Of a DNA stretch of 64,000 bases, positions 16,261 through 24,031 are shown piece after piece. The translations under genes were made by a program, and so were the position numbers. Under the pieces are notes generated by a model. That model saw nothing but the letters and a program-made list of their open reading frames with translations, was not told where the DNA came from and made no database searches. Position 1 is the first letter of the stretch, and each line of letters begins with the position of its first letter. This stretch comes from Escherichia phage A7_1, in sequence record OP795442; one strand, written 5' to 3'.

Positions 16261-16467
16261 TCAAATTTCAACAATACCCTCCGTGAAAAACAATTTCATA
16301 AAGTCTTCTTCCCAAAACACCATTACTCCAGAATGAGTGTCCACAGTGAAAGTTCTCCGTGGATCGCGATACGTATTTCCGAAGTGGAACTCAAATCGAT
16401 CACCCTTCTTATGCTGCCCGAAATCCTCTTTTAATTCACAAAACTGGAACTGCTCTGAAGAAATCAT
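16261..16467 (-). CDS. hypothetical protein (68 aa)
   Basis: ATG with RBS AAGGGG. Confidence 0.45.
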   Translation of the reverse strand: MISSEQFQFCELKEDFGQHKKGDRFEFHFGNTYRDPRRTFTVDTHSGVMVFWEEDFMKLFFTEGIVEI

Positions 16468-16477
16468 GTTTTGCCCC

Positions 16478-16705
16478 TTATTCCCTGTAACCTATGATCT
16501 TTATCAGTTTGTCAGATTTATCTTTTACTTTACTGTAATAGTATTCAGTCTGAGATTTACTATCACACTTTGTCATTGTGTACCAAAAGAAAAAACCTAT
16601 TCGTTTTTGCAAGGCATAAGTAACCTTTTTGCCTGCATGTGTATGATTATATTCAATTAGTACGATTCTGTATCTATTCACAAATCTATTCATGAACTTA
16701 AGCAT
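16478..16705 (-). CDS. hypothetical protein (75 aa)
   Basis: Track ORF; no clear RBS. Confidence 0.35.
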   Translation of the reverse strand: MLKFMNRFVNRYRIVLIEYNHTHAGKKVTYALQKRIGFFFWYTMTKCDSKSQTEYYYSKVKDKSDKLIKIIGYRE

Positions 16706-17031
16706 AGTAACATCACAGCAGCACTAAAACGATGAATGTTGCAATGACCATCACAGTGATCTCGGTTTTGGTAAAAGTCACTTTGTTGGTTGCAGGTACG
16801 TTGTTTTTCCAAATGCTCATAAATTTCTCCTCGTTTAGTAAATACCTAAGATGAACTCATCGCCACGAAAAACTCCAAGGCTACTTGATTCATTCCACAC
16901 ACCAAAATTACCAGTCAGTTCAGAGTCTTCGTAGCTGTAGAGCATCTCGTCTTCTTGGTCTTCATAATGCCCGTTACGAATGATGTTGTCAATTACTTTC
17001 GTTAAATTTTTAATTTTATTCTCCTTAGTTA

Positions 17032-17370
17032 TTATAATTCTTCAGTATTTTCCACAGCATGAGCCAGTTCACTCAAGAAATCTTTCAAGCCGATGGTGTA
17101 CGATTCAACAAGAGCCTCTGCAATTTGGCTCTTAAACTCCGAATCGGCTAACTCTTCCATCCGGCTATGTACGTTGATGTTTGTAATCAGAAACTTAACG
17201 ATATAGCTCGCCTTGTAGAGCAAAGGGAAGTAATCTTCTACCATGTTTTCAATACGGAAGTATTTTTCTGCGTTGTATTCCCACATAAAAACAGCCGTCA
17301 GTTCTTTGGCAAGTTCATGGTCTTTTTTAGCCATTGCAATCAGATGTTCTATCTCTGCTTGTTCAACCAT
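17032..17370 (-). CDS. hypothetical protein (112 aa)
   Basis: Track ORF on the operon strand. Confidence 0.45.
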   Translation of the reverse strand: MVEQAEIEHLIAMAKKDHELAKELTAVFMWEYNAEKYFRIENMVEDYFPLLYKASYIVKFLITNINVHSRMEELADSEFKSQIAEALVESYTIGLKDFLSELAHAVENTEEL

Positions 17371-17582
17371 TAAATGACCTCCTCTTTAAGAATCTCACGA
17401 TGATCTGCGCTGTACCATCCTTTCATCGTATTAACTACACCAACAGCCTCGCCGTATGTTTCAAATTTCGATTCTTCATGTGGGCCAATACGGACAGTTA
17501 CCCAAAACAAGTTAAATACTTTACGATGAACTTCGTAATGCGTTGATTCACCTTTCCGAACTTTAACGATCCGAACTTTCAT
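17370..17582 (-). CDS. hypothetical protein (about 70 aa)
   Basis: Probable start at MKVRIVKV. Confidence 0.4.
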   Translation of the reverse strand: MKVRIVKVRKGESTHYEVHRKVFNLFWVTVRIGPHEESKFETYGEAVGVVNTMKGWYSADHREILKEEVI

Positions 17583-17778
17583 TATACCACCCTCCAAAAG
17601 TCATAAATGCTTGATCAACCATATCTTTCCACTCAGGGTAGAGAGCACAAATCATGATGTAGACCTCTTCATCAATGTCTTCACACTCCTCCATTTCCAA
17701 ATACTCTACCACAGGTATGGGCAGAAGGCAATTTATTTCTTTACCCCTGAATTTCAGACCCTTAACTAATTTTAGCAT
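17563..17778 (-). CDS. hypothetical acidic protein (71 aa) with shared C-terminal module
   Basis: Contains EDIDEEVYIMICALYPEW. Confidence 0.4.
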   Translation of the reverse strand: MLKLVKGLKFRGKEINCLLPIPVVEYLEMEECEDIDEEVYIMICALYPEWKDMVDQAFMTFGGWYNESSDR

Positions 17779-17779
17779 A

Positions 17780-21735: not shown

Positions 21736-21787
21736 TTAAAACCCCCATAAAAGAAAAGCCAGCCACCTTTCGGTGACTGGCCTAGAG

Positions 21788-22285
21788 TTAGCTACTAATC
21801 ACCACGAATGCAGTAACTATAGCATACAGAAATCCAATTGCAACAAAAATTATCATAATGGGGTCAGAGGTTACTCGCTTAAGTTTTCCTAAGAAAGTTG
21901 ATCGGTATTTGTGTTCCTTCTCCATTTTGTTTATCAAAATGATGAAAGAGTTGATATGAATATCTTCAGCACTCTCTGCAAAAGGTGTGTACTTAAACGT
22001 ACCTTCTGTGTTTGCGACGAAGCTGCTGTGATACTTTTTACCATCATAACTTTCTATGAGAAGACCATCCTTTGTCACCCGATAACTGACCGAACGGAAC
22101 TTGTCATAAAAAACGTATGCTCTAAATCCTTCCTGATCGGGACTGGCCCTTCTGACGAATCCGTCAAAAAACTCCAATCTCTTTCCAGAATTTAGTTCCA
22201 CGTTGTCAGCTAACATAGGGAGTTGACTTACATATGTAAAGTACATAATGACCATCCTTCCACTAAGCTGAACACATTTTATCAT
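21788..22285 (-). CDS. hypothetical protein (165 aa), C-terminal membrane anchor
   Basis: C-terminal hydrophobic helix. Confidence 0.5.
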   Translation of the reverse strand: MIKCVQLSGRMVIMYFTYVSQLPMLADNVELNSGKRLEFFDGFVRRASPDQEGFRAYVFYDKFRSVSYRVTKDGLLIESYDGKKYHSSFVANTEGTFKYTPFAESAEDIHINSFIILINKMEKEHKYRSTFLGKLKRVTSDPIMIIFVAIGFLYAIVTAFVVISS

Positions 22286-22447
22286 ATTATGAAAAAATAC
22301 AACAGCGAAGATCGGTCATGAACACTATGTTGTTAATTTTTACAACAAGACTCCAAAAAAGTATTTAAATAACTTAAATCGATTTTAATACATAGAAAAT
22401 ACCTATGGACCAGATCTGACCCATAGGGTATACCTTAATGTGAAATT

Positions 22448-23026
22448 TTATTCATTTCCTCGATATTTTTGAATCGCGATCGAAGTCCTTGGTTCAGCCA
22501 GGCCAGTTCCGTATGCATACCATTTACCAGTGAGTGTTTTTCGAGCACCGTAGGACCCAATCTCCATATCGTCACAATAAACATCGTAACCGATCGGAGT
22601 CTTAATTAAAAAGAGTACGTCACGAGGAATCCCTAAGAGGGTAAACATCGATATGGCATCTTTTGCGATCTCGTGAGAAATCTTCTCTGCATTCTTTTTA
22701 CTACTGGCACTTCTAAACAGTTCCATCTTTAAGAAGATATTGAAATGAATATCATCAAGAACCATCTCATCACGAAAGCATGGGGTCACAGCCATCCAAC
22801 TGCCATCTTCCAACTTCCCCTCTTTGTCGAGTTGAAGGAATGATTGCTCTGCGGAAGCTACTGCGTATTTCCCGTTCTGGACAATGCGAAGATCAGTAAC
22901 ATCTTCGGGGCATGTATGGTCCATAGCATCATCATCCACATAGCTTGGGACAACCTTATCATTGAAACCTTTACATTTCCACCAACTATGAGCATCAATA
23001 AACAATGTGAAGTCAATGTTTGACAT
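22448..23026 (-). CDS. hypothetical protein (192 aa)
   Basis: Probable start at MSNIDF, just after upstream stop. Confidence 0.45.
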   Translation of the reverse strand: MSNIDFTLFIDAHSWWKCKGFNDKVVPSYVDDDAMDHTCPEDVTDLRIVQNGKYAVASAEQSFLQLDKEGKLEDGSWMAVTPCFRDEMVLDDIHFNIFLKMELFRSASSKKNAEKISHEIAKDAISMFTLLGIPRDVLFLIKTPIGYDVYCDDMEIGSYGARKTLTGKWYAYGTGLAEPRTSIAIQKYRGNE

Positions 23027-23027
23027 T

Positions 23028-23630
23028 TTAGCCTCGCTTACCATTCTGGAATGCACGTTTAGTGATTTTTGACATAACCATCAGGTCTTCCAGTGAAGTG
23101 CTCGGATGATGCTTATTCAAGTAGGCTTCCACAGCACCAACCAGATCAGAAAGCTCTACCAACTCCATGATCTTGCATTTTTGTTTGGCTGCATCCTTAA
23201 GTTCATCAAGTTCTTCTTGAATCTTAGTGATCTCTCCAAGTTCTCCACGAGGGAAAGTATCCAGATGATAACCTGGTTTTTGTTCTTCGATCTCTTCATG
23301 TCCGACAACACGAAATTTTCCGGCAGCGAAACGCCAAACACCTTCAAAATACACAATGTAATGTTCCGACTCTACAATGAAGATAGTGTCGAAATTTTTA
23401 AATTTGAAAAATCCTTCAACAAGATTATCTTCTGTACTGAAACTTCCTAAGAAGTTGAGTTCTTGCTCCGTATGAAATTCGATAACCATATTTTCGTTCT
23501 GGAGTTTCGTCAGCAATTTTAAAATTTTCATTTTCTCTCCTCTTATGGGCAACACCGTGGAGATCTTCCACAGAAGAATTGCCAATTGGTTTCTGAATCT
23601 TTGTGGTTTACAAAACCTATCCTTCCGCAC
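23028..23630 (-). CDS. hypothetical protein (200 aa), weak MazG-like helix
   Basis: EELDELKDA...ELVELSDL segment; too short for a firm family call. Confidence 0.4.
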   Translation of the reverse strand: MRKDRFCKPQRFRNQLAILLWKISTVLPIRGEKMKILKLLTKLQNENMVIEFHTEQELNFLGSFSTEDNLVEGFFKFKNFDTIFIVESEHYIVYFEGVWRFAAGKFRVVGHEEIEEQKPGYHLDTFPRGELGEITKIQEELDELKDAAKQKCKIMELVELSDLVGAVEAYLNKHHPSTSLEDLMVMSKITKRAFQNGKRG

Positions 23631-24031
23631 CCTTTCCCACTACAAACCGCTTCACGAGGATGATAGTCTATACTGCAAGAGTGGGGATGATCAAATGCCT
23701 CCTGTATTTCAACACAGAGTCTACTTAACCAAGCGAACATTTTTGGCATAGAAGCTTCAAGGAGTTTAAGTTCATCGACCGTAGGTTTGTCTTTCTCCAT
23801 GAAGAAGTCATTTATCTCGGAAAACAAAATCACGTTTTGAACTATACCGCTGCTTACCTTGTAAGAGAACTCCTCAGTAAGTCTCACAGTAACTTCCTCT
23901 ATCAATTCTTTTTCATTATCTTGATCTTTTGCTAATCTTTCTTCAATCCATCGGATAACGAAGAATCTTTCTCTCTGAACATCCATGTTCAAAGTATTGA
24001 TTATTTTTTCATAGATTAGGTTTCCTTCCAT
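23543..24031 (-). CDS. hypothetical protein (162 aa), Cys-rich C-terminus
   Basis: Contains KPTVDELKLLEASMPKMF and a C-terminal Cys cluster. Confidence 0.45.
   Translation of the reverse strand: MEGNLIYEKIINTLNMDVQRERFFVIRWIEERLAKDQDNEKELIEEVTVRLTEEFSYKVSSGIVQNVILFSEINDFFMEKDKPTVDELKLLEASMPKMFAWLSRLCVEIQEAFDHPHSCSIDYHPREAVCSGKGCGRIGFVNHKDSETNWQFFCGRSPRCCP

What the first reader, a model, noticed from the sequence alone, without database searches (positions are those of the whole stretch)
16261..24031. Hyperplastic stretch of about 25 small minus-strand ORFs with paralog pairs and a shared acidic module
Clear paralog pairs occur (19685..19993 with 20155..20394 sharing ERDR-x-YFTS...EGR-EDW; 18683..19045 with 19008..19352 sharing FFRMP and FEDxS). 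A short module resembling PTDEELDLFxALYPE recurs at the C-termini of otherwise different proteins (17563, 17976, 20762, 21214, 23028, 23543). This points to domain shuffling and duplication and a possible common interaction tag.
Basis: seen in the sequence. Interest (0 to 1): 0.55.

Follow-up and report, generated by a model that had tools for sequence, protein, structure and literature searches.

The report
Phage small-protein family sharing one module
A block of about two dozen small genes in an E. coli phage really does contain a multi-copy protein family sharing a conserved ~40-residue segment; it is an old, well-conserved, phage-lineage-specific gene family of unknown function and not a fast-changing or shuffled region.

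Summary
The window is a Septuagintavirus (Vequintavirinae) coliphage. The stretch 16.1-24.0 kb holds 24 tightly packed minus-strand genes, all annotated as hypothetical in relatives, all intact and under purifying selection (dN/dS 0.11-0.16). Both paralogue pairs are real (E 8e-11 and 3e-10). The recurring module is real in 5 of the 6 listed proteins (not 23028). It also occurs in 20404, in 19685/20155 as a variant form, and in 45922 outside the stretch. It is longer than described: last beta-strand, [FY]F turn, D-P loop, capped acidic helix, [YH]-P, long helix. Module profiles from independent orthologue groups match at 93-98% HHalign probability, while the N-terminal parts do not match (≤1%). 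Shuffled ORFs give 0 hits against 34 real ones. The family has only about 30 clusters among 1.84 billion proteins, no Pfam, NCBIfam or PDB relative, and is confined to the Certrevirus/Septuagintavirus branch, where the carriers lie in conserved order (C-D-B-E-G-A). Two AlphaFold models place the module as the best-predicted core of a similar alpha/beta layout. Best reading: an ancient tandem paralogue family with a conserved structural core and variable heads and tails, probably host-takeover binders. No recent shuffling was found, and a common partner remains untested.

The parts
16095..24031 (-). Block of 24 small, tightly packed or overlapping genes, transcribed right to left. It lies between the RlaP-type nucleotidyltransferase gene (24016..25143) and the RCC1-like virion protein genes.
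   Evidence: collinear with CR3, L011 and L012
23543..24031 (-). Carrier group C (162 aa): N-terminal helices, 3-strand sheet, module (aa 73-115, DNA 23687..23815), then a C-terminal Cys/His-rich beta domain.
   Evidence: phrog_12113; AF2 pLDDT 84.9; HHalign A/B-C 97.2%
21214..21735 (-). Carrier group D (173 aa): module aa 113-135 (DNA 21331..21399). The C-terminus ...VDEDIPF resembles the SSB C-terminal tip.
   Evidence: phrog_12009; HHalign A/B-D 97.0%
20762..21217 (-). Carrier group B (151 aa, TTG start): module aa 98-136 (DNA 20810..20926). Full-length paralogue of 17976.
   Evidence: phrog_12686 with cross-hit to phrog_12307; N-terminal-only blastp
20404..20778 (-). Carrier group E (124 aa): probably disordered N-terminus, beta-hairpin, module aa 76-119 (DNA 20422..20553).
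20155..20394 (-). Carrier group G (79 aa): variant module aa 19-58 (DNA 20221..20340). Lineage-specific tandem paralogue of 19685.
   Evidence: (F-G 86%)
19990..20151 (-). 53-aa hydrophobic (transmembrane-like) peptide gene between the two G paralogues. It is conserved in contig L011. Not a module carrier.
19685..19993 (-). Carrier group G (102 aa): variant module aa 22-58 (DNA 19820..19930).
19008..19352 (-). Acidic protein, paralogue of 18683. The family is restricted to the genus. Not a module carrier.
18683..19045 (-). Acidic protein, paralogue of 19008 (34% identity, E=8e-11). Single copy in contig L011.
17976..18479 (-). Carrier group A (167 aa): three N-terminal helices, six-strand antiparallel sheet, module aa 117-155 (DNA 18015..18131) continuing into a long C-terminal helix.
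   Evidence: phrog_12307; AF2 pLDDT 85.7, pTM 0.81
17780..18019 (-). KOW-like small protein. It corresponds to the head half of a gene that is fused with the 17563 homologue in contig L011.
   Evidence: Pfam KOW E=0.002, below the cutoff
17563..17778 (-). Carrier group H (71 aa): stand-alone module-bearing half (module aa 24-55, DNA 17614..17709). It is translationally coupled to 17780 (TGA-T-ATG).
   Evidence: (E=3e-16 to L011 fusion residues 81-132)
45922..46590 (-). Outlying carrier (222 aa) among the recombination/replication genes. It holds only the first half of the module, near its C-terminus (aa 178-199, DNA 45994..46059).
   Evidence: (A/B-45922 92%)
23028..23630 (-). Its C-terminal 83 aa belong to phrog_6408, with a weak MazG/PRA-PH-like hit.
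21756..21783 (-). Strong intrinsic-terminator-like hairpin (12-bp stem plus T run) just upstream of the D-B-E-G sub-block.
22402..22427 (-). Second terminator-like hairpin, in the 162-bp gap after the aaRS-like gene.

Best explanation
The stretch is the conserved accessory-gene block of a Septuagintavirus. It contains an old, clade-restricted multigene family: 8 members here, one more at 45.9 kb, and one more elsewhere in the genome.

The recurring 'acidic module' is the slowest-evolving core of a small alpha/beta fold. It consists of the last beta-strand, a [FY]-F turn, a D-P loop, a helix N-cap (hydrophobic staple plus T/S-x-x-E capping box), a 10-residue acidic amphipathic helix, [YH]-P, and a long C-terminal helix.

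The family grew by tandem duplication and deep divergence. Occasional add-ons, fusions and fissions also occurred: a Cys/His domain in 23543, an SSB-tip-like tail in 21214, a KOW-like head split off from 17563, and N-terminal extensions in 45922 and A54_60. Every paralogue has been kept in fixed order by purifying selection.

Inferred mechanism: these are non-virion proteins made with the replication and nucleotide-metabolism genes. They act as small binders of host or phage proteins. The conserved core supplies a stable scaffold, possibly a dimerisation surface. The variable sheets and tails supply target specificity; for example, 21214 may act as a decoy for pockets that bind the SSB C-terminal tip.

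Shown: homology of the module, family size and distribution, synteny, selection, and predicted fold layout. Inferred: the scaffold role, binder function, and expression timing.
For: - Module homology between independent groups: HHalign 89-98% probability, while the N-termini score ≤1%. There are 34 real hits against 0 shuffled.
- Both AF2 models (17976 pLDDT 85.7; 23543 pLDDT 84.9) give three N-terminal helices, a beta-meander, a turn, a 10-residue helix, Pro, and a long helix. The highest confidence is over the module.
- Conserved columns are F6 49/53, D8 41/53, E16 48/53 and P25 43/53, at turn and cap positions.
- The carrier order C-D-B-E-G-A is conserved in CR3, L011 and L012 at 30-70% identity.
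- dN/dS is 0.11-0.16.
- There is no DNA-level or high protein-level similarity of modules across contexts.
- There are only 33 clusters (32 excluding the TPR false positive P0044) in 1.84e9 representative proteins, all small.
- The module is absent from the syntenic regions of PVP-SE1, Ro1 and KpS8, apart from one marginal copy.
- None of these proteins is in the W70 virion proteome (PMC11370258).
- The SSB-tip-like end of 21214 is unique among the 1126 window ORFs.
- The genes abut or overlap, and no consensus early promoter lies inside the block.
Against: - N-terminal regions of groups A/B, C, D, E and F share no detectable sequence similarity.
- The 17976 model finds only groups A and B in the viral structure library. 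A single common fold for the whole family is therefore inferred only from the element order of two models, without superposition.
- 71-79-aa members (17563, 20155) consist of little more than the module, so it can exist without the sheet. That fits an autonomous binding or dimerisation unit at least as well as a 'core'.
- No functional data of any kind exist. Expression timing is inferred from gene position only.
Confidence: 0.55

Rival explanations
1. Common docking module. The ~40-residue unit is an autonomous strand-helix-helix domain that binds one shared partner, either a host hub protein or a phage protein such as the phage-encoded ClpP-like protease. The different heads and tails are thereby all delivered to the same place.
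For: - Very short members consist almost only of the module: 17563 is 71 aa and 20155 is 79 aa.
- The module half is a separate polypeptide in the window but is fused to a KOW-like head in L011.
- N-terminal regions are unrelated in sequence.
- Invariant acidic residues E16 and D8 lie on an acidic helix.
- A phage ClpP-like gene lies in the same transcription direction.
Against: - The conserved positions are explained by local structure: a beta-turn D-P, a capping box T/S-x-x-E with hydrophobic staple, and a Pro helix break.
- In both models the module is packed into the domain with the highest pLDDT.
- No partner could be tested.
- No similar docking domain exists in Pfam, NCBIfam or the PDB.
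Confidence: 0.25
2. Mobile module. A short cassette has been moved repeatedly by recombination onto unrelated genes (true domain shuffling), so the carriers are not a family by descent.
For: - Unrelated N-termini.
- Carriers occur outside the array, with long different N-terminal regions (45922, and A54_60 in phage A5-4).
- There is an add-on Cys/His domain that also exists alone: phrog_19749 and phrog_14060, and a Kashira ORF at the syntenic site.
- A fusion/fission event occurred at 17780/17563.
Against: - There is no DNA similarity between module-coding segments, and the best cross-context protein identity is only 65% over 23 columns.
- Module similarity tracks the N-terminal groups.
- Carrier order is conserved over deep divergence.
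- The two models share the same order of structural elements.
- 17976 and 20762 are homologous over their full length.
Confidence: 0.1
3. Virion-targeting or packaging signal, analogous to the capsid-targeting sequence of T4 internal proteins. The shared segment would direct the proteins into the capsid for ejection into the host.
For: - The block lies directly upstream of three RCC1-like proteins that are found in virions (PMC11370258).
- It is a shared short segment on small, diverse proteins.
Against: - None of the carriers is among the 28 virion proteins detected by mass spectrometry in the close relative W70.
- The module is folded, C-terminal and 40 residues long, with no protease-site-like feature.
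Confidence: 0.04
4. Chance or compositional resemblance of acidic amphipathic helices, with no homology.
For: - A TPR-repeat protein (P0044) scores highly through 13 weak repeats of ALEMYRALYPGNHP. This shows that part of the pattern is a common helix-Pro-helix motif.
Against: - Leave-one-out recovery.
- Group-to-group HHalign P from 1e-6 to 4e-14, with negative N-terminal controls.
- 0 hits in shuffled ORFs against 34 real.
- Conservation in orthologues at 30-40% overall identity.
Confidence: 0.01

Closest known systems
PHROG families phrog_12307, 12686, 12009, 12113, 21419/30227/13666 and 15823 (all 'unknown function')
   Same: These are the same proteins. Each carrier group matches its own PHROG with E from 1e-20 to 1e-39; the window's 20404 and 19685 match theirs far more weakly (2e-05 and 0.009). 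12307 and 12686 cross-match over their full length.
   Different: PHROGs splits the carriers into at least 8 separate families with no annotation. The shared module and the paralogue-array organisation are not captured there, nor in Pfam or NCBIfam.
Lineage-specific paralogous families of small early/accessory proteins in large lytic phages (general phenomenon; own knowledge)
   Same: Tandem arrays of small, fast-diverging, non-virion genes next to replication genes, with unknown functions, often linked to host takeover or anti-defence.
   Different: Here the family is defined by a sharply conserved 40-residue C-terminal core, and gene order is strictly conserved across genera. Copy number ranges from 1 to 10. 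No member has a known activity.
Capsid-targeting sequence of T4 internal proteins (own knowledge)
   Same: A short shared segment on otherwise different small phage proteins.
   Different: The T4 signal is about 10 residues long, N-terminal, cleaved, and delivers proteins into capsids. This module is about 40 residues, C-terminal and folded, and the proteins are absent from the virion proteome of a close relative.
TPR-like helix-turn-helix hairpin (kinesin-light-chain-type TPR repeats, hit P0044)
   Same: The local pattern hydrophobic-x-x-A-L-Y-P-G/E followed by a second helix. The profile picks up 13 such repeats in a TPR protein.
   Different: The module is single-copy, not repeated. It is preceded by a beta-strand, an aromatic turn and a D-P loop that TPRs lack. 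Each TPR repeat matches only profile positions 17-41, and weakly. No TPR Pfam hit was found on any carrier.
E. coli SSB C-terminal tip (…DFDDDIPF) and phage SSB-like proteins carrying it (preprint 10.64898/2026.04.29.721553)
   Same: Carrier 21214 ends in VDEDIPF and its homologue P0063 ends in EEIPF. The phage's own SSB-like protein (A54_250 in A5-4) ends in MDFDDDIPF.
   Different: 21214 has no OB fold and is not an SSB. The tail is absent from its CR3 and phiTE orthologues. Binding to SSB-partner proteins is untested.
[not shown]
   Same: An antiparallel sheet flanked by N- and C-terminal helices.

Membership tests
Module-bearing family defined here (Certrevirus/Septuagintavirus small-protein family) | Match to the module profile: [FY]-F-x-D-P-x-x-[IP]-[TS]-x-x-E-h-x-h-h-E-x-L-[YH]-P, followed by an amphipathic helix | tested here: met
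   9 window ORFs have E from 1e-4 to 2e-16 in a search of 7574 ORFs, with 0 hits in shuffled ORFs. 23028 fails.
Module-bearing family defined here | Recovery without self-training (leave-one-out, and independent group-to-group profile comparison) | tested here: met
   Met for 17976, 20762, 20404, 21214 and 23543. Moderate for 19685/20155 (F-G 86%, A/B-G 40%). 17563 fails leave-one-out (E=1.1) but matches the fused L011 homologue at 3e-16.
Module-bearing family defined here | One common fold over the whole protein | tested here: inconclusive
   The element order is the same in the two AF2 models.
Pfam DUF1266 / DUF7675 / Tad2-like (the only weak Pfam hits) | Score above the Pfam gathering threshold, recurring across carriers | tested here: not met
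   Each hit occurs in 1 of 16 carriers, with E 0.019-0.039 and 14-16 bits against a cutoff of 27.
TPR repeat proteins | Tandem 34-residue helix-turn-helix repeats and a Pfam TPR match | tested here: not met
   Each carrier has a single helix-Pro-helix and no TPR Pfam hit. The resemblance comes from P0044's repeats only.
SSB C-terminal-tip-bearing proteins (for 21214 only) | Acidic C-terminus ending D-[DE]-D-I-P-F | tested here: met
   21214 ends in VDEDIPF and is the only one of 1126 window ORFs ending in IPF.
SSB C-terminal-tip-bearing proteins (for 21214 only) | Binding of the tip to SSB-partner proteins (ExoI, RecQ, PriA, chi) | not testable with these tools
   This needs peptide-binding or pull-down experiments.
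SSB family (for 21214) | OB-fold ssDNA-binding domain | tested here: not met
   No SSB or OB Pfam, NCBIfam or PHROG hit; the protein belongs to phrog_12009.
KOW-domain proteins (for 17780, head of the split gene) | Pfam KOW above threshold | tested here: inconclusive
   E=0.002, 18.3 bits against a cutoff of 22.3. There is a 'faint' KOW hit on the L011 fusion.
Virion (ejected) proteins | Detected in purified particles | tested here: not met
   Not among the 28 proteins of the W70 virion proteome (PMC11370258). This is literature evidence for a close relative, not for this phage.

The most novel reading that the evidence does not exclude
The module is a plug-in docking domain. Up to ten different heads and tails (KOW-like, Cys/His zinc-type domain, SSB-tip decoy, variable beta-sheets) would all be delivered through it to one hub, a host or phage protein complex. 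That would form a phage-encoded adaptor toolkit, a kind that has not been described. Its copy number would expand and contract between lineages as hosts and their defences change.
Probability: 0.15. Interest if true: 0.7.

Novelty: new member of a known kind. Interest (0 to 1): 0.4.

Why it matters
Most genes of large lytic phages are small 'hypotheticals', and grouping them is the first step to function. The family has a defined signature, a confident predicted core structure with no PDB relative, a narrow phylogenetic range, and a conserved array of 4-10 copies per genome under purifying selection. A phage keeping ten diverged copies in fixed order implies ten distinct, useful activities, plausibly host takeover or counter-defence. 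One member carries an SSB-tip-like tail, which gives an immediately testable target class. The result also corrects the picture of a 'hyperplastic' region: the backbone is old and stable, and change occurs by duplication, allele exchange and occasional fusion or fission.

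Tried and rejected
- The word-indexed search with the short module alignment reached only near-identical orthologues.
- tblastn of the consensus module against all phage genomes found nothing, because the query is too short.
- Pfam, NCBIfam and PDB-sequence profile searches found nothing significant for any carrier.
- Foldseek against the viral library found only the protein's own A/B groups. The afdb50 library was unavailable.
- The top hit of the exhaustive search (P0044, 2094 aa) was rejected as a summed-repeat TPR false positive.
- A putative second conserved motif, W-x-[WFY] in the N-terminal helices about 95 residues upstream of the module, was aligned by MAFFT but is not significant in profile searches (E about 1). 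I dropped it as evidence.
- I considered a ribbon-helix-helix DNA-binding reading and a beta-clamp-binding-motif reading (EELDLF against QL[SD]LF). I rejected both by inference: the proteins and module are acidic, the strand-helix loop is long, and the motif lies inside a confidently predicted helix.
- 23028 was rejected as a carrier.
- The consensus Certrevirus early promoter was sought in the stretch and not found there.
- The generic sigma-70 scan was no better than shuffles.

Full report
IDENTITY OF THE WINDOW.
- The 8.1-kb region matches five Escherichia phages (A5-4, A73, W70, UPEC06, LTH01) at 93-97% DNA identity over its full length.
- These phages are Vequintavirinae of the recently named genus Septuagintavirus (PMC11370258).
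- Every gene in the stretch is annotated 'hypothetical' there, apart from one 'putative seryl-tRNA synthetase' label.
- The window runs from small plus-strand genes (1-10 kb), through a long minus-strand block (10-58 kb) of replication and nucleotide-metabolism genes, to a tRNA cluster.

CHECK OF THE OBSERVATION.
- Between 16095 and 24031 there are 24 minus-strand ORFs that abut or overlap by 1-88 nt. There are only four gaps above 50 nt.
- The ORFs are intact in UPEC06 and A5-4. Pooled dN/dS is 0.11 and 0.16, so they are real genes under purifying selection.
- All-against-all BLASTP confirms the pairs 18683/19008 (34% over 92 aa, E=8e-11) and 19685/20155 (35% over 46 aa, E=3e-10).
- It also reveals a web of weaker links among 17563, 17976, 20404, 20762, 21214 and 23543, all located at one segment.

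EXTENT OF THE MODULE.
It begins with h-x-[DE]-[YF]-F upstream of the acidic stretch.
It does not find 23028.
- 23028's C-terminus belongs instead to phrog_6408, with a weak MazG/PRA-PH-like signal.

IS THE MODULE MORE THAN CHANCE? Self-trained scores are circular, so I ran three controls.
1. Leave-one-out profiles recovered 20762 (3e-9), 17976 (8e-6), 21214 (2.5e-3), 20404 (6e-3) and 23543 (0.018) at rank 1-2 of 1126 six-frame ORFs. 17563 and the 19685/20155 pair were marginal.
2. I clustered 75 carriers from the window, related phages and databases by their N-terminal parts alone, then compared group profiles.
   - N-terminal regions of different groups give HHalign probabilities ≤1%. The only exception is the E-subgroups (E1, P0067, P0068), whose matches of up to 62% cover just the roughly 14-26 residues immediately before the module.
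   - The 50-residue module regions of the same groups give 97.2% (A/B-C), 97.0% (A/B-D), 96.7% (A/B-E), 98.2% (A/B-F), 97.0% (C-E), 93% (C-D) and 92% (A/B-45922).
   - The 19685/20155 group links at 86% through group F. 17563 links only weakly (35%).
3. Over 7574 ORFs from eleven loci, the profile gives 34 hits at E<1e-3 and none in residue-shuffled copies.

17563 IS A GENUINE CARRIER. In the divergent contig L011, one 155-aa protein aligns to 17780 over residues 9-70 (E=2e-17) and to 17563 over residues 81-132 (E=3e-16). So 17563 is the module-bearing half of a gene that is fused there and split here (…TGA-T-ATG…, with an AAGGA ribosome-binding site).

DISTRIBUTION.
- An exhaustive HMMER search of 1.84 billion representative proteins with a module-only profile found 33 clusters at E≤1e-3.
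- One hit is a 2094-aa TPR protein that scores through 13 weak ALEMYRALYPGNHP repeats. I treat it as a false positive.
- All other hits are proteins of 71-183 aa with the module near the C-terminus.
- tBLASTn of 20762 finds homologues only in Septuagintavirus and in Certrevirus-type phages of Cronobacter, Pectobacterium, Enterobacter, Klebsiella, Pantoea, Serratia and Acinetobacter: 31 records.
- The syntenic 29 kb of PVP-SE1 (Seunavirus) and of Ro1 and KpS8 (Mydovirus), anchored on the conserved nucleotidyltransferase, contain no carrier. The exception is one marginal degenerate copy in PVP-SE1 gp172.
- The remaining 98 kb of the A5-4 genome holds just one further candidate, A54_60.
- Pfam, NCBIfam and PDB-sequence profiles recognise nothing. 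All matching PHROGs are of unknown function and split the family into at least eight entries.

GENOME ORGANISATION AND EVOLUTION.
- The block is collinear with Cronobacter phage CR3 for 14 of 25 genes at 30-68% identity. The shared order is: nucleotidyltransferase, C (23543), MazG-like (23028), aaRS-like (22448), membrane protein (21788), D (21214), B (20762), E (20404), G (19685), 19441, 18469, A (17976), 17780, 17032.
- Two divergent metagenomic contigs show the same order.
   - L011 has collinear window homologues for 19 of the 20 genes called downstream of the nucleotidyltransferase anchor. It has single copies of the G-type and 18683-type genes, so both tandem duplications in the window are lineage-specific.
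   - L012 has 9-10 carriers within 8 kb. Two tandem F-type copies sit where the window has the MazG-like and aaRS-like genes.
- At a uniform threshold of E<1e-3, carrier number per locus is 1 (Kashira), 4 (phiTE), 5 (L011; 7 counting two weaker hits), 6 (CR3), 8 in this stretch (9 in the window with 45922) and 9 (L012; 10).
- Within the genus, gene content is constant. Per-gene identity jumps between 85% and 100% depending on the partner phage, which indicates allelic recombination.
- Between different carriers in the window there is no DNA-level similarity. The best cross-context module identity anywhere is 65% over 23 columns. There is therefore no sign of recent shuffling or gene conversion.
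- 'Hyperplastic' is thus an overstatement. The backbone is old and ordered, and plasticity is limited to copy number, alleles, and rare fusion, fission or accretion events.

STRUCTURE.
- AlphaFold2 of 17976 (33-sequence alignment): pLDDT 85.7, pTM 0.81. Helices 2-16, 19-22 and 26-32; six strands between 44 and 116; a short turn at D-E-Y-F; a loop; helix 129-138; Pro140; helix 141-164.
- AlphaFold2 of 23543 (7 sequences): pLDDT 84.9, pTM 0.76. Helices 3-14, 16-22 and 24-35; three strands 44-67; a turn at N-D-F-F; a loop; helix 85-94; Pro96; helix 96-114; then a beta-rich Cys/His domain.
- In both models the module region has the highest confidence, and the order of elements is the same.
- Column statistics over 53 non-redundant modules show near-invariant F6, D8, E16 and P25. 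They also show the pattern h(12)-[TS](13)-x-x-E(16)-h(17). I read this as a hydrophobic staple plus capping box at the helix N-terminus (established helix-capping rules; inference). D-P would be a turn and [YH]-P a helix break. These are structure-determining residues.
- The viral structure library returns only A/B-group relatives.

WHAT IT MOST LIKELY IS.
- It is an ancient tandem paralogue family restricted to the Certrevirus/Septuagintavirus branch. The 'module' is the conserved C-terminal core of a small alpha/beta fold.
- The variable features are the sheets, the heads (a KOW-like head for the 17780/17563 gene) and the tails.
   - The Cys/His domain of 23543 also exists alone, in phrog_19749 and phrog_14060 and at the syntenic site in Kashira.
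   - 21214 carries an SSB-tip-like tail.
- The proteins are not virion components in the close relative W70, whose proteome lists only the adjacent RCC1-like proteins (PMC11370258).
- No copy of the conserved sigma-70-like early promoter described for Certrevirus (PMC7344957) lies inside the block. The nearest upstream copy is at 28.9 kb.
- Two strong terminator-like hairpins punctuate the block.
- From this I infer co-expression with the replication and nucleotide-metabolism genes, and a role as small binders of host or phage proteins. The conserved core would act as a scaffold and the variable parts would give specificity.
The 71-79-aa members are little more than the module. I rate it at about 0.25, because the conserved residues are explained structurally and the module is integrated into the predicted domains.

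FUNCTIONAL HINT.
- 21214 ends in …VDEDIPF. Homologue P0040 ends identically and P0063 ends in EEIPF.
- It is the only one of 1126 window ORFs ending in IPF. The phage's own SSB-like protein (A54_250 in A5-4) ends in MDFDDDIPF.
- The E. coli SSB tip mediates binding to many DNA-processing proteins, and phage proteins carrying it have been implicated in triggering a defence system (preprint 10.64898/2026.04.29.721553).
- 21214 may therefore act as a decoy or adaptor for SSB-tip-binding pockets. This is inference only.

VERDICT.
Duplication is supported. Recent shuffling is not supported. A common tag is untested.
- The family itself is undescribed and has no known structural or sequence relative. 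As a phenomenon, however, a lineage-specific paralogous family of small accessory phage proteins is ordinary.
- Interest is moderate (0.4).

Noticed in passing
window 21214..21735 (-), C-terminus; A5-4 record 34206..35381 (L006): Carrier 21214 ends in …VDEDIPF, closely resembling the E. coli SSB C-terminal tip (DFDDDIPF). It is the only window ORF ending in IPF. The phage's own 391-aa SSB-like protein (A54_250) ends in MDFDDDIPF. The CR3 and phiTE orthologues of 21214 lack the tail. It may be an SSB-tip decoy.
   Followed up: partly
window 17563..18019 (-); L011 15504..15971: 17780 (KOW-like) and 17563 (module) are separate, translationally coupled ORFs here (TGA-T-ATG). In a divergent relative they are a single 155-aa protein. 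This is a gene fission or fusion event.
   Followed up: yes
window 23543..23680 (-) (aa 117-162 of the 23543 protein): A conserved Cys/His-rich C-terminal domain (HPHSCSIDY…C-x2-C…YYCG…CCP), predicted to be beta-rich and probably zinc-binding. It matches short stand-alone PHROG families (19749, 14060) and a small ORF at the syntenic position in phage Kashira.
   Followed up: partly
window 22448..23056 (-): A 192-202-aa protein matching phrog_4806 ('histidyl tRNA synthetase', E=9e-56), with a faint class-II aaRS Pfam hit. It is annotated 'putative seryl-tRNA synthetase' in UPEC06. It is a truncated aaRS-like protein of unclear role, very strongly conserved (dN/dS 0.03-0.04).
   Followed up: no
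window 12536..16125 (-): The genes directly downstream of the stretch are RCC1/WD40_RLD-like repeat proteins. In phage W70 the homologues (W70_237-239) were detected in virions by mass spectrometry, so structural proteins are encoded at the end of an otherwise non-structural transcription block.
   Followed up: partly
window 1485..1515 (+), 28920..28949 (-), 51949..51978 (-), 54286..54315 (-): Four exact copies of the sigma-70-like early promoter consensus TGTTGAC-N16-19-TATAAT described for Certrevirus (0.02 expected by chance). None lies inside the stretch under study.
   Followed up: partly
window 16000..25143, compared with A5-4 and UPEC06: Gene-by-gene mosaic identity. For example, 17976 is 87% identical to A5-4 but 97% to UPEC06, while 18683 is 100% identical to A5-4 but 89% to UPEC06. 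This indicates frequent allelic recombination among Septuagintaviruses without change in gene content.
   Followed up: partly
window 19990..20151 (-): A 53-aa strongly hydrophobic peptide gene sits between the two G-type paralogues. It is conserved at 38% identity in the divergent contig L011 and is under purifying selection.
   Followed up: no
window 61421..63124 (+): A cluster of five tRNA genes (Met, Tyr, Gly, Gln, Pro).
   Followed up: no
L008 16573..17067 (Salmonella phage PVP-SE1 gp172): A 164-aa protein with a degenerate module-like segment (DMFLDSSSPTDEEAQML; E=0.008) and BLASTP E=1e-3 to group A and D members. It may be a single ancestral-type copy in Seunavirus.
   Followed up: partly
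L012 9583..10384 (Logan SRR10083279 contig): Two tandem copies of a carrier subgroup (F; P0054-type, module YFEDPENISDEEWDLFEICEPE) that is absent from the window. They occupy the position where the window has the MazG-like and aaRS-like genes.
   Followed up: partly
window 29492..30337 (-): A phage-encoded ClpP/S14-like protease subunit gene within the replication/nucleotide-metabolism block, conserved across Vequintavirinae. Its substrates are unknown. It is a speculative candidate partner for the small proteins.
   Followed up: no
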